Sequence record: MK327944.1
Strand: one strand, 5' to 3'
Length of the DNA: 64,000 nt
Source: Escherichia phage vB_EcoM_G2540-3
The first letter of the stretch is position 1. The number at the start of each line of letters is the position of its first letter. The notes under the pieces are model-generated. The model did no database searches. It had not been told where the DNA came from and was given only the letters and a program-made list of their open reading frames with translations. This document shows positions 11,310-63,140 of this stretch, piece by piece. The translations under genes were made by a program, and so were the position numbers.

Positions 11310-11912
11310 TTATAGATTAAATCCTTCAAAATCAAGAGTATAGATAGTGTATGTTGAATACTTTTTATACTCATATCTATCCGCAATTCTAAATACACTT
11401 CCAGCTGGTATCATTACTTCTTGTTCATCTGAAACTAATTCCATATTACGATAGCGATGGCTATCCGGAAACTTAAAACTTGGACTATATTCTTTACAAC
11501 GTAGAGCTTTTATAGCATACTCCTGGAAATTAAATACCATAGGAGCTTTGAATTCAAAAATAACTTGCGTATTGTATTCTAATCCAGAAGCAAAATGTAG
11601 AGCTATATTTTTATCATATGAAGCTGATACTACTTTATCAAATGTAATAATATCAATTCCTTGATTTAACACTTGCTTAGTCTCAACTGGAACACCTCTC
11701 CAAAGAGGTTTATCGTTTGGTTCCAAACGAGATTTGATTATTTCATTTAACCAAGAATGATCGTCTGGCTTATTAGTAATACAATGAATTAAAAGTTCAA
11801 TTTCGGATAAATTAAATCCTTCAGAAAGTAATTCTTCACGAATAGAAGCACGCACCGATGCATCCATTGATTTGATTTTAAAATCTTTTAATTGCATTGC
11901 TGAATATTTCAT
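11310..11912 (-). CDS. modA: ADP-ribosyltransferase ModA, 200 aa
   Basis: R-S-E ART signature: LWRGV, SAS, EQEVMIP; 200 aa; tandem with its paralogue. Confidence 0.8.
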   Translation of the reverse strand: MKYSAMQLKDFKIKSMDASVRASIREELLSEGFNLSEIELLIHCITNKPDDHSWLNEIIKSRLEPNDKPLWRGVPVETKQVLNQGIDIITFDKVVSASYDKNIALHFASGLEYNTQVIFEFKAPMVFNFQEYAIKALRCKEYSPSFKFPDSHRYRNMELVSDEQEVMIPAGSVFRIADRYEYKKYSTYTIYTLDFEGFNL

Positions 11913-12544
11913 TCAACTACCTCAATATCATACACTTTAAATGTTCCAAATGAATCATGTAATTTTTCTTTTGAAATAGAAGTTATTTTATACTTTCCAA
12001 TTGGAATCATCCATTCTTGTTCACGCACAATCATCATTAAGTTATCAGTACGTTCTGAATCTAATCCATCAGTATCTTCATATGTATACTTAAACTCAGT
12101 ATTAGGAGAAGAAAGTATAATATCGCTGATATGGTCAGAATAATTAAAAGCTTTATCAGTTTTTAAGCGAAGTACTATTTCAGTGAAATATTCAGCATAA
12201 GAAAAAGAACACGCTGTATGCAAACTAGTAGTAAATGAATCTACTCTGTTCGTTGAAAACACTTCTCCAACTTGTAAATCTTTAATGAGTTCTTTTGTCG
12301 ATTTTGATATACCACGATATAGCTGATAAGGTGATTTAGTTAAATGCTTTTTAATGATTTTATTCAACTGCCGATGAAGAGCTTCATTCTTTTTGGCTTC
12401 CATACATTGCCAAAGAACTGACTGTTCAAAGTCAGTAAATTTTTCACAGACCTTTTTATACATATCATATTGAAAATCAACGCTTTCAGCTTTTATAGAT
12501 AACTGTTCAACATCTGCAAGATTAATAATCATGATAGCCTCCAT
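11909..12544 (-). CDS. modB: ADP-ribosyltransferase ModB, 211 aa
   Basis: R-S-E ART signature: LYRGI, STN, EQEWMIP; RBS GGAGG; early promoter at 12559..12588. Confidence 0.8.
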   Translation of the reverse strand: MEAIMIINLADVEQLSIKAESVDFQYDMYKKVCEKFTDFEQSVLWQCMEAKKNEALHRQLNKIIKKHLTKSPYQLYRGISKSTKELIKDLQVGEVFSTNRVDSFTTSLHTACSFSYAEYFTEIVLRLKTDKAFNYSDHISDIILSSPNTEFKYTYEDTDGLDSERTDNLMMIVREQEWMIPIGKYKITSISKEKLHDSFGTFKVYDIEVVE

Positions 12545-16514: not shown

Positions 16515-17165
16515 TTATTTTTCCTTTCTTATGAAGTTTTCTATCATATGTCTATAGCAGATATTAGGATAACCTGCCTTGACAGCTATTTTATTAAATT
16601 TTGTGCGCTTAGGTCTATTATTATAAACCCATAATTCATAAAGCGCATCATAACTATTCCATATTTCTCCTCGCCTAGGATTTGGTAAACCATATCGAGG
16701 CGAATTTTTACCGCTAAATCTTCCTTTTCGGGCTTTACTCATATTAGCCTTGGCTTCATCGGATATAATTTTACCTTTATGAGCTAGACGCATTTTGGCT
16801 TTAGTTTCTTCTGGAGTCTTTTTACCTTTAATCCATGACGGCTTGCCATATCTAGGATTATTTTCACCCGAGAAAAGAACAGAGTTTTGGATTTTAAGGG
16901 TTTCTATTAATCTACTTGTTAATTTAACACCTTTATTATATCGCATTAAATTTACAGCATAATGCAATCCTCTCACATCTGGATATATTTTAGTTAATAA
17001 TCTATGAGCTATAAAATGCTCACGCGCAGTTAACTCAACAAGATTGTTTTTGCCATCTGCTCCTCCCATACATCTAGGAATTATATGATGGCGTTCTTTA
17101 TATCCGCCAAGATGCCGGCATTTAGCTTTTGTAATTAAAGCCGAGTAAATTTTTTGGTAATTCAC
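16515..17165 (-). CDS. HNH (Mob-type) homing endonuclease, 216 aa
   Basis: HHIIPRCMGG...NLVELTAREHFIAH motif; MotA-box middle promoter upstream. Confidence 0.8.
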   Translation of the reverse strand: MNYQKIYSALITKAKCRHLGGYKERHHIIPRCMGGADGKNNLVELTAREHFIAHRLLTKIYPDVRGLHYAVNLMRYNKGVKLTSRLIETLKIQNSVLFSGENNPRYGKPSWIKGKKTPEETKAKMRLAHKGKIISDEAKANMSKARKGRFSGKNSPRYGLPNPRRGEIWNSYDALYELWVYNNRPKRTKFNKIAVKAGYPNICYRHMIENFIRKEK

Positions 17166-18650: not shown

Positions 18651-19256
18651 TTAAAAATTTGGGTCATCAATAGAAACTTTTACTTTAAACTGTTTTTCTG
18701 ATGGTAATTCATATCCGCATATTACAATTTTGTGATCAATATCAAAATACACAGAAGCAATATGATTAATGATGTTTTCAGTAAAGTCTAAATCAACCTC
18801 AATATCTTTTTGACCACAACCCAAAGGATAAATAATGCGAGTAATTCGATTATCTTTAACAAAGATTCCACCAATATACTCTGTGCTGCGTTTAAAGTCT
18901 ACGCGCCGCCGAAATGAAAAATATTCAGGCTCTTTATGAGCTCGGCTCATAGGACACAACGAATAACTAGAATAAGAGATGTCAAATCCTACACCTTCAA
19001 TATGAACTAAATTGTCATGATTAAACCAATTATAATCGTACGCCAAGTCCATTAGATTATAATATGTAAAAGGCACCGGATTAACATCACTAGTCACAAG
19101 CACGTAATTAGCAACTGCTATAATTTCGTTGTTTTTAACGAATACAAACCGCGATTGATGCGAATGACCTGGACCTGCGTTTTCACGATTAATGATATAA
19201 CACTGGGCACCTTTATATTTGTACGTGTCTTTGCACTTGTGCATTTGATAAAGCAT
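18651..19256 (-). CDS. hypothetical protein, 201 aa (61.2 position)
   Basis: ORF only; identity not verifiable from sequence. Confidence 0.5.
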   Translation of the reverse strand: MLYQMHKCKDTYKYKGAQCYIINRENAGPGHSHQSRFVFVKNNEIIAVANYVLVTSDVNPVPFTYYNLMDLAYDYNWFNHDNLVHIEGVGFDISYSSYSLCPMSRAHKEPEYFSFRRRVDFKRSTEYIGGIFVKDNRITRIIYPLGCGQKDIEVDLDFTENIINHIASVYFDIDHKIVICGYELPSEKQFKVKVSIDDPNF

Positions 19257-56801: not shown

Positions 56802-57091
56802 TCAGTCTCCAATTTAATGTTCATAATTCTAGCGTATGATTGTGCCATCTCCGCGCCTCGCTCTATACATTCAAAATCGGAAGAGCACGGGTCATTTTTA
56901 TAAGTCGTTCGCATAAAACTATAGAACTGTTCAGATGATTCTACGCTTTTGTTTTCAAAAAGCATATAAACGTGTCTAATACCAGATTCCATAAATTTAT
57001 CAAAATGAGAATCGACATTCGCTTCAATTGGTGGAGATAAAGCAAATGCTAATCCTAGCATGGCAAATAGTGCCGTTGCTTTTAAGGCCAT
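56798..57091 (-). CDS. rI: lysis-inhibition regulator rI, 97 aa
   Basis: 97 aa with N-terminal signal-anchor MALKATALFAMLGLAFALSPPIEA; position before tk. Confidence 0.75.
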   Translation of the reverse strand: MALKATALFAMLGLAFALSPPIEANVDSHFDKFMESGIRHVYMLFENKSVESSEQFYSFMRTTYKNDPCSSDFECIERGAEMAQSYARIMNIKLETE

Positions 57092-57103
57092 AAAGGCCTC
57101 CTA

Positions 57104-57316
57104 TCATTTTTGTCCTGTATTTACTTTATGCCGATGCACGGCCTTAACTTTATCAAGGTATTTTTCAAAATTTCGCAATCTAGTATAGTCTGCCGGAGAT
57201 TGGTTGAGTGATACTTCTCGACGCAAAGCTGAAATGATATTTCCAACTTCCCTACGAATTTCATCTAATTGAAGAACAGTAAGATTGCGAAGTTGCTTTT
57301 CAGTTAATTGTAGCAT
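57104..57316 (-). CDS. hypothetical protein, 70 aa (rI.1 position)
   Basis: Late promoter TATAAATA at 57342..57349 upstream. Confidence 0.5.
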
Positions 57317-57341
57317 ATATACCCCTTTAGTTAGATAAACC

Positions 57342-57349
57342 TATTTATA
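57342..57349 (-). promoter_or_regulatory. late promoter (before 57104..57316 and rI)
   Basis: Minus strand TATAAATA. Confidence 0.55.
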
Positions 57350-57358
57350 ACTTTTGCA

Positions 57359-57940
57359 CTAACCGAGCTTTTTAGTTAATTCATTCCAATGTTTTCTACA
57401 CAAAGAAACATAAATTTCATCACCAATACAGATTTGATTACCTTCTTTAACTGGTGTTCCATCTTCCATTAATCGAGCTGTTATAATAGCTTTTTTACCA
57501 CAATGACAAACTGCCTTTAGTTCAATAAGTTTATCTGCAATCGCCAAAAGTTCTTTAGAACCTTCAAATAATTTTCCAGCGAAATCAGTCCTTAGCCCAT
57601 AAGCCATAACAGGAACATTATATGTATCAACAATTCGACTTAATTGATGCACCTGTTCAGTTTTTAAAAACTGAGCTTCATCTACAAATACACAATGAAT
57701 ATCTTTTTGTGCTTCAGCCCATTTATAGAACTCAAAAATATCCATATCATCCGTAATAATATTCGCTTCCTGCTTAATTCCAATGCGAGAAACGACTTCA
57801 CAGACAGAATCGCGAGTATCAATAGCAGGCTTAAGAACTAATACACCCATTCCGCGTTCTTTATAATTATGTGCAGCAGTCAAAAGAGAAGCAGATTTTC
57901 CAGCATTCATTGCTGCGTAAGTAAAAATTAAACTCGCCAT
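57359..57940 (-). CDS. tk: thymidine kinase, 193 aa
   Basis: P-loop AAMNAGKS; 193 aa; zinc-ribbon-like CHCGK...C near the C-terminus. Confidence 0.9.
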   Translation of the reverse strand: MASLIFTYAAMNAGKSASLLTAAHNYKERGMGVLVLKPAIDTRDSVCEVVSRIGIKQEANIITDDMDIFEFYKWAEAQKDIHCVFVDEAQFLKTEQVHQLSRIVDTYNVPVMAYGLRTDFAGKLFEGSKELLAIADKLIELKAVCHCGKKAIITARLMEDGTPVKEGNQICIGDEIYVSLCRKHWNELTKKLG

Positions 57941-57949
57941 ATCACCTTC

Positions 57950-58135
57950 TTAAAGCATATTCACATAAGCTATTAATTCGTTTTCTTTCTTATCAAACCG
58001 ATCAGCAAATTCTTCTTGCTGTTCGGGAGATAGCGGGCCGTATTCATCATAAAAGGTGTTTGCTTCTGTATGCTCATCTAGAAGTTCATGGATAAGCTCA
58101 AACAATTTATCTTTTTGTTCTTTACTCAGACTCAT
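57950..58135 (-). CDS. hypothetical acidic protein, 61 aa
   Basis: ORF only. Confidence 0.45.
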   Translation of the reverse strand: MSLSKEQKDKLFELIHELLDEHTEANTFYDEYGPLSPEQQEEFADRFDKKENELIAYVNML

Positions 58136-58305
58136 ATATTAATTTCCAGGAGTTTTAAAATAATTCGCTTTTGCTTAAATATTTCCATAGTTAAATGACC
58201 AGTATCTTTTTGACCGATTCCAATGGCAAAACCTTTATTGACAGCGAGTTCAATTAAATTATCAAGCTCACGTAACACTTCATACTGTAACTCAAAACTA
58301 TTCAT
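58132..58305 (-). CDS. hypothetical small protein, 57 aa (below ORF-track cutoff)
   Basis: MNSFELQYEVLRELDNLIELAVNKG...; ATGA-coupled at both ends. Confidence 0.4.
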   Translation of the reverse strand: MNSFELQYEVLRELDNLIELAVNKGFAIGIGQKDTGHLTMEIFKQKRIILKLLEINI

Positions 58306-58514
58306 TTCGGTTTACCTTCTTTAACGAAATCTGGATAAGGATAAAATCCCGAATAAAATCCTTCACCTTTATGATTGATGCATCCTTTATTAGAACAATA
58401 GCACCAATAATCGAAATCACAAGCCATTTCATCGTTGCATAAAGCAAAAACAACTGGCCATTTACACTTTTCACAATGGGCATTTTTAAGAATACTAGTT
58501 TGGCTCATAACCAT
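58302..58514 (-). CDS. Cys-rich small protein, 70 aa
   Basis: CEKCKW...C..D...YWCYCSNKGCINH pattern suggests metal binding. Confidence 0.5.
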   Translation of the reverse strand: MVMSQTSILKNAHCEKCKWPVVFALCNDEMACDFDYWCYCSNKGCINHKGEGFYSGFYPYPDFVKEGKPK

Positions 58515-58732
58515 GTAACCTTTAAGCAGTATTCTTCTACATGCTGTTTACGACCTTTCTTATCAATAAAGGTATATTCAACGAATGTTCCAATGTAGTC
58601 TTTATCTACATCATGCGGACTATTAATTGGACATTTAGTACGGCAAATGCGTTCCCATTGACGAATAATTACTGCCTTATTCTTTGGGTCATATGGATGT
58701 GGATAATGTATATTCATAATAACGGTTCCCAA
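58505..58732 (-). CDS. hypothetical protein, 75 aa
   Basis: ORF only. Confidence 0.45.
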   Translation of the reverse strand: MGTVIMNIHYPHPYDPKNKAVIIRQWERICRTKCPINSPHDVDKDYIGTFVEYTFIDKKGRKQHVEEYCLKVTWL

Positions 58733-59181
58733 TCAACAATCACAATTTCTAATTTAGAGGAATATGTATCTAAAATCCCCTCAATAATATCCCAGTTCCC
58801 TTTACCTATGCCTGCACCAATCCTAGGCATATAGATTGTAGGTTTAATCAGTTTATTTTCACCAAACTCATTTAATTCTAACATACAATTCATTAAAGCG
58901 GAATACTCAAAATTTGGCCCTGGTTGAAATTGAGTATAAAGGTTGAAGCAATACGCTTTATGAGTCCTAAAATATTTTTCATAGACTGAGTAAGAACCGA
59001 GTTTAGTTACATCACCCCATTCAGTCTGTAATTTATCAGCTTCCAAAATTTTAGGGAAAGCTTTGGTTAATTGACCCGCTACGCCTGAACCCATAGTATG
59101 AAAACAATTGCATCCATGCGCAATATTTTTACCTTCAGCGAAAAGGGCGACAATATCGCCCTTGATATATTTTACAATCAT
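58714..59181 (-). CDS. macro-domain protein (putative ADP-ribose binding or hydrolase), 155 aa
   Basis: KGDIVALFAEGKNIAHGCNCFHTMGSGVAGQL and IYMPRIGAGIGKGNWDII match macro-domain core motifs. Confidence 0.6.
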   Translation of the reverse strand: MIVKYIKGDIVALFAEGKNIAHGCNCFHTMGSGVAGQLTKAFPKILEADKLQTEWGDVTKLGSYSVYEKYFRTHKAYCFNLYTQFQPGPNFEYSALMNCMLELNEFGENKLIKPTIYMPRIGAGIGKGNWDIIEGILDTYSSKLEIVIVDWEPLL

Positions 59182-59519
59182 CTAGTACTCAATCCTCGAT
59201 TATAAGAATCTACCAAACGGTCAACCATTGAATGACAAGCGGCTTTATCTTTCTCCTCCGCAACTGAACATTCTAAGGTATTCCACTTTTTAGCATATCG
59301 TTTTAATAATGTATCGTTTTTGTATCTGCTTGATTTATCTCTTTCTCCGTCTTTATATGCATATATTAATTTCTGCGCAAATTCAGCTTGGCATGCTTTA
59401 TTTTTCCCACAATAATCTGCCGCAGTGCGATTTACATATTCTCTAATTTCAGTATATGATGTATCTGCTAACGCAGAAAATGAAATTAATCCTATACATA
59501 AAACCAAAATTTTAGTCAT
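59178..59519 (-). CDS. secreted or periplasmic protein, 113 aa
   Basis: Signal peptide MTKILVLCIGLISFSALA; paired cysteines. Confidence 0.5.
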   Translation of the reverse strand: MTKILVLCIGLISFSALADTSYTEIREYVNRTAADYCGKNKACQAEFAQKLIYAYKDGERDKSSRYKNDTLLKRYAKKWNTLECSVAEEKDKAACHSMVDRLVDSYNRGLSTR

Positions 59520-60057
59520 TTACTATTTCCAAAAGTTTATTATTTTTAAGGTAATTAGCCTTTTCTAGGACTTCAGAAGCATATTTAGAACCTGCTTTAA
59601 CATTCCATCCCGAATTATAAGATGATATTGCTTTTCTTATATCGCCCTTATGTATATTTAACCAATAAGAAAGTTCAATGTACGCCCAGGAAGCTGAATT
59701 GGATCGTTTATTCAACATTCTTTTTATTTCAGCATCGGTCATATTATAACCAAGTTCCTTAACTCTTGCTCGCATAGTAGGCAAATAATTTTGGAACATT
59801 CCATAAGCGTGATGCTTTGGTTTAGATTTTAAATTAACTCCGCCAGAGCTTTCTTGCCATAAAATAGCAGCCATTATATGACCTAATCCGCTCTTGTGGA
59901 TATTTTTGTGTGTTTTATATTTTCCATCCTTAGAAAATTGTTCCCCGAATTGATACGCGTAACGCATGTTATCGAGTTGGACATTACTGAAAGTATGCTC
60001 GGAGCTATGTGCCATCATTGAAATGGCCAATAGACCAGCGAGTAGTGCTTTTCTCAT
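59512..60057 (-). CDS. lytic-transglycosylase-like (SLT domain) exported protein, 181 aa
   Basis: Signal peptide plus an ILWQESSG segment resembling the SLT catalytic E-S motif. Confidence 0.5.
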   Translation of the reverse strand: MRKALLAGLLAISMMAHSSEHTFSNVQLDNMRYAYQFGEQFSKDGKYKTHKNIHKSGLGHIMAAILWQESSGGVNLKSKPKHHAYGMFQNYLPTMRARVKELGYNMTDAEIKRMLNKRSNSASWAYIELSYWLNIHKGDIRKAISSYNSGWNVKAGSKYASEVLEKANYLKNNKLLEIVND

Positions 60058-60064
60058 GCTTACC

Positions 60065-60526
60065 TCATTGAGTTTTAATTACTGCTTTAGAAGCCTTTCC
60101 TGGTAAACGACGACTGTTGATAATTGCCATCCTGCATTGAAGTGACGGGTTTTTGAACTTCTCGTTAGGTTTACAAACTGTAAATCCAAGCCAAAGATTT
60201 CCATCTGTGATTTCTAAACGTCCAGGACGATATTCAACCCCATCAATAAAATCCTCGTCAATGTCAGGACGCGGAGGCATACTCAGGAATTCATTAACTT
60301 CTAAAACATGGTCTTTTATTTTATGGAATAATTCAAAAACATATGTCTCATCAATCTCCCGTTGAATTGCACGATCAAGAAGATGTTGAGAATATTTTAG
60401 ATGAAACGATGAGACTCCTGCTGCTTTTGATGCCTCACGAATCTCATTGTTAATTTGACGAAACTCCGACTCAAAATGACGACGAAGCTTATTTCTACGG
60501 ATAAAAACTTCTGTATTGATAGTCAT
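60065..60526 (-). CDS. regB: RegB site-specific endoribonuclease, 153 aa
   Basis: 153 aa; position between the tk/vs genes and denV; RBS GAGGAG; early promoter upstream. Confidence 0.65.
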   Translation of the reverse strand: MTINTEVFIRRNKLRRHFESEFRQINNEIREASKAAGVSSFHLKYSQHLLDRAIQREIDETYVFELFHKIKDHVLEVNEFLSMPPRPDIDEDFIDGVEYRPGRLEITDGNLWLGFTVCKPNEKFKNPSLQCRMAIINSRRLPGKASKAVIKTQ

Positions 60527-60553
60527 GTTATTCTCCTCTTAACTGATAGAAAA

Positions 60554-60583
60554 ATTATACCACAGTCAAGAGGAAAAGTAAAC
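60554..60583 (-). promoter_or_regulatory. T4-type early promoter (regB)
   Basis: Minus strand GTTTAC, 18 nt, TGGTATAAT. Confidence 0.65.
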
Positions 60584-60585
60584 AG

Positions 60586-60906
60586 TTATTCTTTAAATCT
60601 AATCAATTTATTCATAGACTTTGTAACTTCTGCACGAACCTCATGTAAGTTTTTAAGCTGTTCAAGACTTTGCTCATAGTAAGCAATTTCATCTTCTTCG
60701 AGGCAGTCCTGTGAATCTTCTTTAAGATAACGTGCATAGTCCTGGAAAGCTTTACGGACTACTTCCTGGAAGTCATCAAGACTTTGAATTTTCTTAGGAG
60801 CAACAGATACACGACGAGGGGCAGTATAATACTCATAACCAAACCCTGCGCTTAATTGAGCCATTAGTATTTTTCCTCTGGTTGGAACACTGCGCGACAA
60901 GCCCAC
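60586..60906 (-). CDS. hypothetical protein, 106 aa
   Basis: ORF only. Confidence 0.45.
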
Positions 60907-61130
60907 ATACTGGCTTCTTTGAGTTTCGTTTTAGCAATAGTTAACTGATCGAGGCTTTCGGCGTAATTCTTCGCGAGTTCATCATCTTCACAGCTATCAA
61001 ATGCTTCCCAGAATTCATCATATAAAGCATCAAAGATAAGCCCTAAACGAACTTCAGCATCTTTGATAGCATTCACTTTACTGATTTTATCGTCAGTATG
61101 TGGTTTATAACCTTTAATGTCTTCAATCAT
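60864..61130 (-). CDS. hypothetical acidic helical protein, 88 aa
   Basis: ORF only. Confidence 0.45.
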
Positions 61131-61344
61131 ATTTTACTTCCTCACCTGTTCCCAAATCATATTCAACTAAACGAATAGGTTCATGAATGCCATATCCTTG
61201 AACAGAAATTTCTGTCGTAGGATAAATTCCATTAATATCACCCATGTTCCATGCTTCGTTAAATTGCTGTTCGCCTGAATTACTAAACCACTCGGCGAAA
61301 GCATTTAGCACATCTTCAGAACCTTCAATAATTATCTTTGCCAT
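61123..61344 (-). CDS. hypothetical protein, 73 aa
   Basis: ORF only. Confidence 0.45.
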   Translation of the reverse strand: MAKIIIEGSEDVLNAFAEWFSNSGEQQFNEAWNMGDINGIYPTTEISVQGYGIHEPIRLVEYDLGTGEEVKYD

Positions 61345-61706
61345 TACAAACTCTCGGTGAAGGTACGAGCGATAACGTCGCGCTGCTGTTCCGGAGTCAG
61401 AGAGTTAAAGCGAACTGCATAACCGGATACACGGATGGTCAGCTGCGGATATTTTTCCGGATGCTTAACTGCATCTTCCAGAGTTTCACGACGCAGAACG
61501 TTAACGTTCAGGTGTTGACCACCTTCAATTTTAACTGTAGGCTGTTGCTCAATTTCAATTTCACGGGCATGCAAACCATAGAAAATTTCTGGGTCTACAA
61601 AAGAGTCCTCTTTAAAGGTTTTAGAGACAATAATTCGTGCTTGAATACCATCTTCAAAATAAATAGTACCTTTATGTGTGCCTTCAAGAATTTGATATGC
61701 TTTCAT
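61344..61706 (-). CDS. autonomous glycyl-radical cofactor (GrcA/YfiD-like), 120 aa
   Basis: C-terminal [27 protein letters not shown] carries the glycyl-radical RVSGY fingerprint. Confidence 0.75.
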
Positions 61707-61712
61707 ATAACC

Positions 61713-62042
61713 TCAATTAGAAAATAAATTTATCCAAGATTGTTCTTTAATTAAAAATGGCTCAGAATCATATGCCATTAAACTCTGTGTGATTAGTCCT
61801 TTAAAAGGCCCATCAATAAATTCCATGGTAAAATATGGAATTTTATTCATTAGCCGTGCATTAGGAGCCGTGCACAAAACTCTGCATCCTTTGAATACGC
61901 CTTTTTGTAATTTGTATTGCTTGGGATAAAATTCGCTCAAAATGTTATTTTTTGCCAAAATTTCAAAATGATTCACCAATTTATTTTTAATAGTTTTTGG
62001 CGAAAAATAAAGATATTCGAAAAGCTGAGTGTCTGTCATCAT
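61713..62042 (-). CDS. hypothetical protein, about 110 aa
   Basis: Start trimmed to ATG 62042, ATGA-coupled to the upstream gene. Confidence 0.45.
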   Translation of the reverse strand: MMTDTQLFEYLYFSPKTIKNKLVNHFEILAKNNILSEFYPKQYKLQKGVFKGCRVLCTAPNARLMNKIPYFTMEFIDGPFKGLITQSLMAYDSEPFLIKEQSWINLFSN

Positions 62043-62578
62043 TGCATTCCGATTACGAAAAACTGTGGACGAGTAATACCACCAATGCAACATTTAATAT
62101 TACAGCAGCAGTGTACAGTGTCAATATGGACACTATAAATCTTATCCATATCAGGAGATTTGACAGGCTCATCAATTATATACAAAATTCGCGAAAGCGA
62201 TAAACCTCTGAACTTGCTTCCTTTATTACCAATAAAACTGCGCACAGAATCAGTAAATAAACGAAAACGTATATCATCATTAGAATAACGCGAAAATTCC
62301 TTTTTAATATTATCTGCGGAAATTTTAGCGTAAGCTGAAGTATTAGAAAGAACAATAACTGTTCCACCGTCATACAACCAATTAGCGGCAAAATTAGTTA
62401 CTGCAGTTGATTTACCAGATTGACGCCCACCATCTAGTCGAAGTGTACAATACTGTTTAAGTAAGTCTTCAAATGGCGGGATATATTCGTTTTTACAAAT
62501 TTCTTCTACTCTAGCATCAGAATGGTGTGTAAAAGCATTCATCAGGGATAGATAAGGACCAGTTAAAAATGTTCTCAT
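62039..62578 (-). CDS. small P-loop NTPase, about 180 aa
   Basis: Walker A GGRQSGKST and Walker B ILYIIDEP; start trimmed to ATG 62578. Confidence 0.5.
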   Translation of the reverse strand: MRTFLTGPYLSLMNAFTHHSDARVEEICKNEYIPPFEDLLKQYCTLRLDGGRQSGKSTAVTNFAANWLYDGGTVIVLSNTSAYAKISADNIKKEFSRYSNDDIRFRLFTDSVRSFIGNKGSKFRGLSLSRILYIIDEPVKSPDMDKIYSVHIDTVHCCCNIKCCIGGITRPQFFVIGMQ

Positions 62579-62723
62579 TTTGTTCTCTCTAGGTTTGGGC
62601 CATTCCATGGCGCATGAATTGTCCATTTCTGTATTTACCCATTACCGCACTTGGGCTCGACCTTATTACAGGTTGGCGGGAATCCCTCACAGAATCATGA
62701 GGTCCAGGTTATTCCCATGTTAT

Positions 62724-63140
62724 TTAAATGTAAATATTTTTGCCGTAATACTTATACCAGTGTGGCTTCATTAAAATTTTTTCATCGAGTCGTTGTTGAC
62801 TCAACTTAATAGCTGATTTGCATGGATTATAATCATTTTTCCATTCTACTGGAATATCGCTGATGTCAGGAACTTCAGTATCTTTTATACTGAACCCGCG
62901 TTTTAAGCATTCCGTTATAATGTCCGATTGACGCTTTCGCAAAAATTCTAACTTATCGTAAAAGAAAGTAACATGACCAGAACCTAAAATAAATTTAGAA
63001 GATATTTTAAAATCTTTAACGCGCTTACCGTTTGCCACATGCTTACGAACTATACCAAAAACACGCGGCAATTCACGGTATTCTGCGATTAAATGTTGAT
63101 CAGCAAGTTCAGATACTAAAGTCAAATTAATACGAGTCAT
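62724..63140 (-). CDS. denV: endonuclease V (DenV) pyrimidine-dimer DNA glycosylase, 138 aa
   Basis: 138 aa; N-terminal [27 protein letters not shown] matches the DenV family. Confidence 0.9.

What the first reader, a model, noticed from the sequence alone, without database searches (positions are those of the whole stretch)
58714..59181. Macro-domain protein encoded in a genome that also carries ModA/ModB ADP-ribosyltransferases
The 155-aa product has macro-domain core motifs (GDIVALFAEGKNIAHGCNCFHTMGSGVAGQL and IGAGIGKGNWDII). Macro domains bind or hydrolyse ADP-ribose modifications. Together with ModA/ModB (11310..12544) this suggests a writer-plus-eraser arrangement, or a counter-measure against host ADP-ribosylating defences such as DarT-type toxins. 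I could not confirm from memory whether T4 itself has a homologue.
Basis: partly seen in the sequence, partly recalled or inferred. Interest (0 to 1): 0.55.

Follow-up and report, generated by a model that had tools for sequence, protein, structure and literature searches.

The report
T4 Tk.4/AdfM anti-DarT2 macrodomain
This gene encodes a small ADP-ribose-handling (macro-domain) protein identical to phage T4's Tk.4, already annotated for two decades and shown in 2025 to protect T4 from the bacterial DarTG2 defence, so the finding is real but already known.

Summary

The window is a mosaic T4-like phage (Tequatrovirus). The protein is 100% identical to T4 Tk.4, which has been annotated as an "A1pp phosphatase / macro domain" since about 2006. 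A 2025 preprint (HIDEN-SEQ) found tk.4 as the only transposon hit on a DarTG2 host, showed that a clean knockout sensitises T4 to DarTG2, and named the gene adfM.

- **Writer-plus-eraser with ModA/ModB:** this part is not supported. Tk.4-like genes occur in 2,750 phage records, while Mod-like genes occur in 1,010, all T4-like. Macrodomains are also not known to erase Arg-linked ADP-ribose.

One refinement comes from this work. Tk.4 is not a DarG-type enzyme. The catalytic lysine (DarG K80, TARG1 K84) is an invariant Gln84, as in Streptomyces SCO6735, a lysine-less hydrolase that cleaves thymidine-linked ADP-ribose. Tk.4 lacks SCO6735's long mobile loop. PhiKZ "AdfM" is a separate, true DarG-type protein. 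No biochemistry exists for Tk.4.

The parts
58714..59181 (-). tk.4 / adfM coding sequence (155 aa plus stop), a single macro domain
59077..59118 (-). Loop 1 of the ADP-ribose pocket, residues 22-35: H22-G-C-N25-C-F-H-T-M-G-S-G33-V-A35
   Evidence: In 118 family members N25 is 117/118, G33 118/118, A35 118/118 and H22 113/118. N25 shares a column with DarG N22 and PhiKZ AdfM N23, whose N23A mutant loses activity. H22 aligns with Poa1p H23, SCO6735 H24 and TARG1 H32.
58930..58932 (-). Codon CAA for Gln84, in the column of the catalytic Lys of DarG (K80) and TARG1 (K84) and of Gln85 of SCO6735
   Evidence: hhalign of A1 against the DarG set (98.7% probability) pairs Tk.4 T83-Q84 with DarG T-K. 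MAFFT gives the same column. Q84 is 118/118 in the family. SCO6735 Q85A is inactive on T-ADPr DNA (PMC9411070). The codon was read.
59035..59037 (-). Codon GAT for Asp49, a family-specific invariant residue of unknown role
   Evidence: 117/118 in the Tk.4 family. The same column is Tyr in DarG, SCO6735 and BT1257.
58792..58827 (-). Loop 2, the diphosphate-binding loop, residues 119-130: P-R-I-G-A-G-I-G-K-G-N-W
   Evidence: P119, I121, G122 and G124 are invariant and W130 is 116/118. It aligns with P-R-I-G-C-G-L-A-G-G-x-W of SCO6735/BT1257 and P-P-L-G-A-G-N-G-G-L-x-W of DarG. The position of TARG1 D125 is Gly or Ala here.
59193..59197 (-). GAGGA Shine-Dalgarno-like sequence, with 11 nt between it and the ATG
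   Evidence: Read directly. The old T4 record X04567 also annotates a ribosome_binding_site in this stretch (H24).
59178..59181 (-). ATGA overlap: stop of vs and start of tk.4 (translational coupling)
   Evidence: Sequence. The vs ORF is 59178..59519. T4 has the same arrangement.
58714..58717 (-). ATGA overlap: stop of tk.4 and start of the tk.3-like ORF (58505..58717, DUF7202)
   Evidence: Sequence. Pfam DUF7202, 131 bits. T4 tk.3 and tk.4 overlap in the same way.

Best explanation
The gene is tk.4 (adfM) of a T4-like phage. It is an early-region, non-essential counter-defence gene whose 155-aa single-domain macrodomain protects the phage from the host DarTG2 toxin-antitoxin defence. DarT2 ADP-ribosylates thymidines in single-stranded phage DNA and so blocks replication. 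Tk.4 most likely binds the ADP-ribose through its two Gly-rich loops and hydrolyses the N-glycosidic thymine-ribose bond, restoring normal DNA. It acts as an orphan antitoxin-like eraser without a toxin-binding domain. Because the DarG/TARG1 catalytic lysine is replaced by an invariant glutamine, catalysis is inferred to follow the lysine-independent route proposed for Streptomyces SCO6735, in which the Gln positions the distal ribose or transition state and an ordered water does the chemistry. What is inferred: the DNA de-ADP-ribosylase activity itself and its mechanism.
Against: No enzymatic assay exists for Tk.4, and the preprint itself says only that enzymatic removal 'seems likely'. Tk.4 lacks the lysine essential in DarG and TARG1. 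It also lacks SCO6735's longer mobile loop and Lys34/Lys89, which that paper ties to DNA binding, so transferring the SCO6735 mechanism is an extrapolation. Similarity to DarG profiles is weak: NCBIfam 30 bits against a cut-off of 250, and PADLOC 36 bits against 133 for PhiKZ AdfM. SCO6735 Q85A and DarG K80A still inhibit DarT by interaction, so a non-catalytic contribution cannot be excluded. The genetic evidence is a preprint, and it used one DarTG2 system at 30 C in minimal medium.
Confidence: 0.75

Rival explanations
1. Tk.4 neutralises DarT2 mainly by binding, not catalysis. It would either sequester the toxin, as in the interaction-inhibition seen for DarG, TARG1 and SCO6735 catalytic mutants, or cap ADP-ribosylated sites.
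For: The catalytic lysine is absent. The SCO6735 Q85A, DarG K80A and TARG1 K84A mutants still inhibit DarT in vitro (PMC9411070). Other phage anti-DarT factors, AdfA and AdfB, act by binding DarT (PMC11257639).
Against: All ADP-ribose-pocket residues are strictly conserved, including N25 and Q84 (118/118 for Q84). These are catalytic-type positions in PhiKZ AdfM and SCO6735. There is no extra domain like the DarG C-terminal toxin-binding domain. A stoichiometric binder of modified DNA would not restore replication.
Confidence: 0.1
2. Writer-plus-eraser: Tk.4 reverses or tunes the ADP-ribosylation or RNAylation that the phage's own Alt, ModA and ModB place on host proteins.
For: ModA and ModB are in the same genome. 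SCO6735 and TARG1 also de-modify proteins.
Against: Alt, ModA and ModB modify arginine, and Arg-ADPr is removed by ARH/DraG-fold hydrolases. Macrodomains act on ester-linked and, in this class, thymine-linked ADPr (established knowledge). The genes are about 46 kb apart. Tk.4-like genes are in 2,750 phage records, including Pseudomonas, Vibrio, Acinetobacter and Aeromonas phages, Felixounavirus, Vequintavirinae and Ackermannviridae. Mod-like genes are in only 1,010 records, the listed ones all T4-like. In the T4 screen tk.4 was dispensable on plain K-12 and was selected only under DarTG2.
Confidence: 0.04
3. Metabolite-processing enzyme, as the old 'A1pp phosphatase' annotation implies. It would hydrolyse ADP-ribose-1''-phosphate or O-acetyl-ADP-ribose, for example by-products of RNA repair or of sirtuin-type reactions.
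Against: T4 RNA repair (PNKP plus Rnl1) does not go through the Tpt1 pathway that yields Appr>p (established knowledge). This idea does not explain the DarTG2-specific phenotype. The annotation derives only from the domain name (PMC1524935).
Confidence: 0.06

Closest known systems
Phage T4 Tk.4 = AdfM (NP_049723; bioRxiv 10.1101/2025.11.20.689424)
   Same: 155/155 identical residues. Same neighbours (vs upstream, tk.3 downstream) and the same ATGA overlaps.
   Different: Nothing in the protein. The host genome is a different, mosaic Tequatrovirus: best 25-kb match ACG-C40 at 96.9%, and the local 2.1 kb is 100% identical to vB_EcoM_G9062.
Streptomyces coelicolor SCO6735 and Bacteroides BT_1257 (PDB 5E3B, 2FG1/2AFC)
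   Different: Only about 26-29% identical. Tk.4 lacks the roughly 5-7-residue longer 'mobile loop' that defines the SCO6735 subclass. It also lacks Lys34 and Lys89, and has Gly23 where SCO6735 has Val25. It carries its own invariant D49 and Y82.
DarG antitoxin macrodomain of DarTG2 (T. aquaticus 5M31/5M3E, M. tuberculosis 5M3I)
   Different: About 19-22% identity. Lys80 is replaced by Gln84. There is no C-terminal DarT-binding domain and no adjacent darT. The NCBIfam DarG equivalog scores 30 bits against a cut-off of 250.
PhiKZ gp104 'AdfM' (Cell Rep 2026, PMC13309987)
   Same: A phage-encoded single macrodomain that counters DarTG2, given the same name.
   Different: A different lineage. gp104 is a true DarG-type protein with the FPTK motif: E=1e-24 to Mtb DarG and PADLOC DarG 133 bits. 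BLASTP against Tk.4 aligns only 23 residues (E=0.005). gp104 has in vitro evidence and Tk.4 does not.
Human TARG1/OARD1 and yeast Poa1p
   Different: The TARG1 K84/D125 dyad is absent; Tk.4 has Q84 and G126. Poa1p has Ser at the Gln position and is known as an Appr-1''-p phosphatase.

Membership tests
Macro domain superfamily (Pfam PF01661) | Profile match above the curated gathering score | tested here: met
   27.7 bits against a cut-off of 22, residues 22-132.
Macro domain superfamily (Pfam PF01661) | Three-layer alpha/beta/alpha macro fold | tested here: met
Macro domain superfamily (Pfam PF01661) | Binds ADP-ribose | not testable with these tools
   Both Gly-rich loops are conserved.
ALC1/TARG1-like class of macrodomains | Closest structural relatives are class members (TARG1, DarG, SCO6735/BT1257, Poa1p) rather than MacroD, PARG or macroH2A types | tested here: met
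MacroD-type hydrolases | N-x6-GG-[VLI]-D catalytic motif (Asp after the Gly pair) | tested here: not met
DarG (DarTG2 antitoxin) | Catalytic Lys in the F-P-T-K motif (Taq K80) | tested here: not met
   Gln84 occupies that column in Tk.4 and in 118/118 family members.
DarG (DarTG2 antitoxin) | Two-domain architecture with a C-terminal DarT-binding domain, encoded next to darT | tested here: not met
   The protein is 155 aa with a single domain. Its neighbours are vs and the tk.3-like ORF. The NCBIfam equivalog scores 30.3 bits against a cut-off of 250 and matches only profile positions 2-146 of 338.
DarG (DarTG2 antitoxin) | Hydrolyses thymidine-linked ADP-ribose on ssDNA | not testable with these tools
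   Inferred from the genetic phenotype of the identical T4 protein. No assay has been published.
SCO6735/BT_1257 subclass | Gln at the position of the DarG/TARG1 catalytic Lys | tested here: met
   Tk.4 Q84 shares a column with SCO6735 Q85 and the BT1257 Gln. The SCO6735 numbering was checked against the paper's V25, K34 and K89.
SCO6735/BT_1257 subclass | Mobile loop about 5 residues longer than in DarG/TARG1, carrying Lys89; Lys34 in loop 1 | tested here: not met
   The Tk.4 loop (QFQPGPNFEY) has the DarG/TARG1 length, 6-7 residues shorter than in SCO6735/BT1257, and has no Lys. The Lys34 position is Ser32, or Ala in most members.
TARG1 | Lys84/Asp125 catalytic dyad | tested here: not met
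   Tk.4 has Q84 and G126 at these columns. The TARG1 sequence was verified against PDB 2LGR.
T4 Tk.4/AdfM orthologue group | Sequence identity and vs-tk.4-tk.3 synteny | tested here: met
   100% identity. Window 58504-60600 is collinear with T4 60712-62814 at 98.5%.
T4 Tk.4/AdfM orthologue group | Required for plating on DarTG2-expressing hosts | not testable with these tools
   Published for T4 only.

The most novel reading that the evidence does not exclude
Tk.4-type AdfM may be a third, previously undescribed mechanistic subgroup of ALC1-like macrodomains. It has an invariant Gln instead of the catalytic Lys, a short loop unlike SCO6735, and its own invariant Asp49, Tyr82 and Gly23. Phages would have recruited it independently of the DarG-type AdfM of PhiKZ. 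Because it occurs in about 5% of sequenced phage genomes across many families, it may erase a wider range of base-linked ADP-ribosylation than DarT2's. Candidates include other thymine- or uracil-directed ARTs acting on DNA or RNA.
Probability: 0.4. Interest if true: 0.4.

Novelty: already known. Interest (0 to 1): 0.15.

Why it matters
The gene itself adds nothing new. It is T4 tk.4, whose macro domain has been annotated since 2003-2006 and whose anti-DarTG2 role was reported in 2025. Two small points are worth keeping.

First, the T4 protein was compared in the literature with DarG, but it lacks DarG's catalytic lysine. Its active site resembles the lysine-less SCO6735 type instead. The mutants to make are therefore Q84, N25, H22 and D49, not a 'K80-like' lysine. 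Two phage proteins now both called AdfM (T4 Tk.4 and PhiKZ gp104) are separate recruitments from different subgroups of the class.

Second, this family is very widespread in phages, with 2,750 of 50,697 records. That argues that base-directed ADP-ribosylation is a common selective pressure on phages.

Tried and rejected
1. A sigma-70 promoter and terminator scan of 57000-62000 found no more sites than shuffled sequence (18 against 19.5 expected). It was uninformative for expression.
2. Direct BLASTP of Tk.4 against PhiKZ AdfM aligned only 23 residues. The two 'AdfM' proteins therefore cannot be treated as orthologues.
3. I looked for a cellular Tk.4 homologue next to a darT gene. The 'Bacilli bacterium' MAG contig carrying P0072 turned out to be a T4-like phage contig, so it gave no toxin-antitoxin context.
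4. The MacroD/YmdB assignment suggested by JGI names ('O-acetyl-ADP-ribose deacetylase, regulator of RNase III') was rejected on motif and fold ranking.
5. The first phmmer alignment placed a BT1257 Lys opposite Tk.4 T83. Profile and MAFFT alignments, and the published structure-based alignment, instead place BT1257 and SCO6735 Gln opposite Q84. I adopted the latter.
6. The tool does not expose model coordinates. I could not measure whether D49 and Y82 line the distal-ribose pocket.
7. Foldseek's top 50 did not list 5E3B. I relied on BT1257 as that cluster's representative.
8. The window is not simply the G9062 genome. Coordinates drift from that record and from T4, and the first 25 kb match ACG-C40 best at 96.9%.

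Full report
**Observation**

The window carries a 155-aa ATG ORF on the minus strand at 58714..59181, stop codon included. The finding did not give the strand.
- The ATG overlaps the stop codon of the upstream ORF (59178..59519) as ATGA. The stop overlaps the ATG of the downstream ORF (58505..58717) in the same way. A GAGGA sits 11 nt upstream of the start.
- The ORF therefore lies inside a tightly packed, co-oriented, probably translationally coupled gene string.
- A consensus promoter and terminator scan of the neighbourhood found nothing above shuffled background.

**Whose gene it is**

The surrounding 2.1 kb is 100% identical to Escherichia phage vB_EcoM_G9062 and to many other Tequatrovirus genomes. 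In those records the ORF is annotated 'macro domain protein', 'phosphatase', 'Poa1p-like family protein' or 'ADP-ribose binding module protein'.
- The first 25 kb of the window start at rIIA and match ACG-C40 best, at 96.9%. The window is therefore a mosaic T4-like phage rather than any single record.
- In the T4 reference genome the corresponding gene is tk.4 (NP_049723, 'phosphatase; contains A1pp phosphatase motif'). It lies between vs and tk.3, and the protein is 155/155 identical.
- Window 58504-60600 is collinear with T4 60712-62814 at 98.5% identity.

**Macro-domain assignment**

| Test | Result |
|---|---|
| Pfam Macro PF01661 | 27.7 bits (gathering cut-off 22) |
| PHROG 335 'phosphatase' | E=1e-65 |
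| AlphaFold2 model from a 56-sequence alignment | pLDDT 96.2, pTM 0.91 |

Foldseek and a family-profile search of PDB sequences give the same ranking. The protein is therefore a member of the ALC1/TARG1-like class of macrodomains. It is not MacroD/YmdB-type, because the MacroD Asp motif is absent and the corresponding position is an invariant Ala35.

**What is already published**

- The A1pp/macro domain in tk.4 orthologues was reported in 2006 (PMC1524935).
- Work on AdfN (T4 gp30.3, a NADAR enzyme) showed that T4 lacking AdfA and AdfN remains resistant to DarTG2. The authors concluded that T-even phages must carry another factor (PMC11257639).
[quoted passage not shown] A clean knockout became sensitive to DarTG2. 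The authors noted structural similarity to M. tuberculosis DarG and named the gene adfM. They concluded that enzymatic removal of ADP-ribose from DNA 'seems likely' (10.1101/2025.11.20.689424). No biochemistry on Tk.4 was found in the library.
- Independently, PhiKZ gp104 was also named AdfM. It was shown in vitro to remove DarT2-made ADP-ribose from a TNTC oligonucleotide, and its N23A mutant was impaired (PMC13309987).

PhiKZ gp104 is a true DarG-type macrodomain. It carries the FPTK motif, matches Mtb DarG at E=1e-24, and scores 133 bits on the PADLOC DarG model. Tk.4 is much more distant.
- It scores 36 bits on the PADLOC DarG model.
- It scores 30 bits on the NCBIfam DarG equivalog, against a cut-off of 250.
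- BLASTP against gp104 aligns only 23 residues.

Three independent alignments agree on the catalytic column. They are a profile-profile alignment of the Tk.4 family against DarG-type sequences (98.7% probability) and two MAFFT alignments. All place Tk.4 T83-Q84 opposite the T-K of DarG (K80) and TARG1 (K84). The TARG1 sequence was recalled from memory and then verified as identical to PDB 2LGR.

Conservation among 118 family members:

| Residue | Conserved in |
|---|---|
| Gln84 | 118/118 |
| Tyr82 | 118/118 |
| Asn25 | 117/118 |
| Gly23 | 117/118 |
| Asp49 | 117/118 |
| His22 | 113/118 |

The same column is Gln in BT1257 and in S. coelicolor SCO6735. I recovered the SCO6735 sequence from PDB alignments and checked its numbering against the published V25, K34, Q85 and K89.

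SCO6735 is the published precedent for a lysine-less enzyme of this class (PMC9411070).
- It cleaves DarT-made thymidine-ADP-ribose faster than DarG or TARG1.
- It rescues DarT toxicity.
- Its Q85A mutant is dead.
- A water-mediated mechanism was proposed for it.

Tk.4 shares the Gln and the A-H-x-C-N motif with SCO6735. It lacks the longer 'mobile loop' that defines the SCO6735 subclass, and it lacks Lys34 and Lys89. It also has its own invariant Asp49, Tyr82 and Gly23. I therefore file it as an ALC1-like macrodomain that probably works like SCO6735. It is a member of neither the DarG family nor the SCO6735 subclass.

**Writer-plus-eraser idea**

ModA (11310..11912) and ModB (11909..12544) are real, but four points speak against a functional pairing.
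- tblastn finds Tk.4-like genes in 2,750 of 50,697 phage records. These include Pseudomonas, Vibrio, Acinetobacter and Aeromonas phages, Felixounavirus, Vequintavirinae and Ackermannviridae.
- ModB/ModA-like genes occur in 1,010 records. The listed ones are almost all T4-like phages of enterobacteria of about 165-175 kb.
- Alt, ModA and ModB are arginine-specific, and Arg-ADP-ribose is reversed by ARH/DraG-fold enzymes rather than macrodomains (established knowledge).
- In the T4 screen tk.4 was dispensable on plain K-12.

**Other rivals**

- A purely stoichiometric anti-toxin role is conceivable. Catalytic mutants of SCO6735, DarG and TARG1 still inhibit DarT. It does not fit well with the strict conservation of catalytic-type pocket residues.
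- The historical 'Appr-1''-p phosphatase' reading rests on the domain name and the resemblance to Poa1p. It does not explain the DarTG2 phenotype.

**Verdict**

The anti-DarT interpretation is supported by published genetics on the identical protein. The ModA/ModB pairing is not supported. The feature is already known. The residual interest lies in the lysine-less active site and in the lack of any enzymology for the T4 protein.

Noticed in passing
window 57941-58503: The stretch between tk and the tk.3-like ORF is not collinear with T4. Three small minus-strand ORFs replace T4 tk.1/tk.2: 57950..58135 (61 aa, DUF7438, about 68% nt identity to T4 tk.2), 58132..58305 (57 aa, no Pfam hit) and 58302..58514 (70 aa, Phage_zn_bind PF23895). 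The flanks are 98% identical to T4.
   Followed up: partly
window 18651-19256 (-): A homologue of T4 gp61.2 = AdfA, the DarT1-binding anti-DarT factor. It is 95% identical over 201 aa, against 208 aa in T4, with a different C-terminus. The window therefore carries at least two anti-DarT genes. The third, adfN/30.3, lies outside the window in T4 coordinates.
   Followed up: partly
window 16515-17165 (-): A 216-aa GTG-start ORF with a NUMOD3 motif and an HNH-like N-terminus (HHIIPRCMGG...), so homing-endonuclease-like. It sits between the gene-56-like dCTPase ORF and the primase gene, where T4 has dam. I did not check whether dam is present elsewhere in the window.
   Followed up: no
L004 1-8397 (GCA_051648945.1 contig, labelled 'Bacilli bacterium' MAG): The contig carrying Tk.4 homologue P0072 encodes T4 Rnl1, a Dda-like helicase, PNKP, dCMP deaminase and a T4-type spanin. 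It is a T4-like phage contig binned into a bacterial MAG. The macro gene sits two genes downstream of RNA ligase 1 there.
   Followed up: no
literature, not a coordinate: Two non-orthologous phage macrodomains now share the name AdfM. T4 Tk.4 is Gln-type and has genetic evidence only. PhiKZ gp104 is DarG-type with a Lys and has in vitro evidence. BLASTP between them aligns 23 residues.
   Followed up: yes
window 58714-59181, residues D49, Y82 and G23: Family-specific invariant residues with no counterpart in DarG, TARG1, SCO6735 or BT1257.
   Followed up: partly
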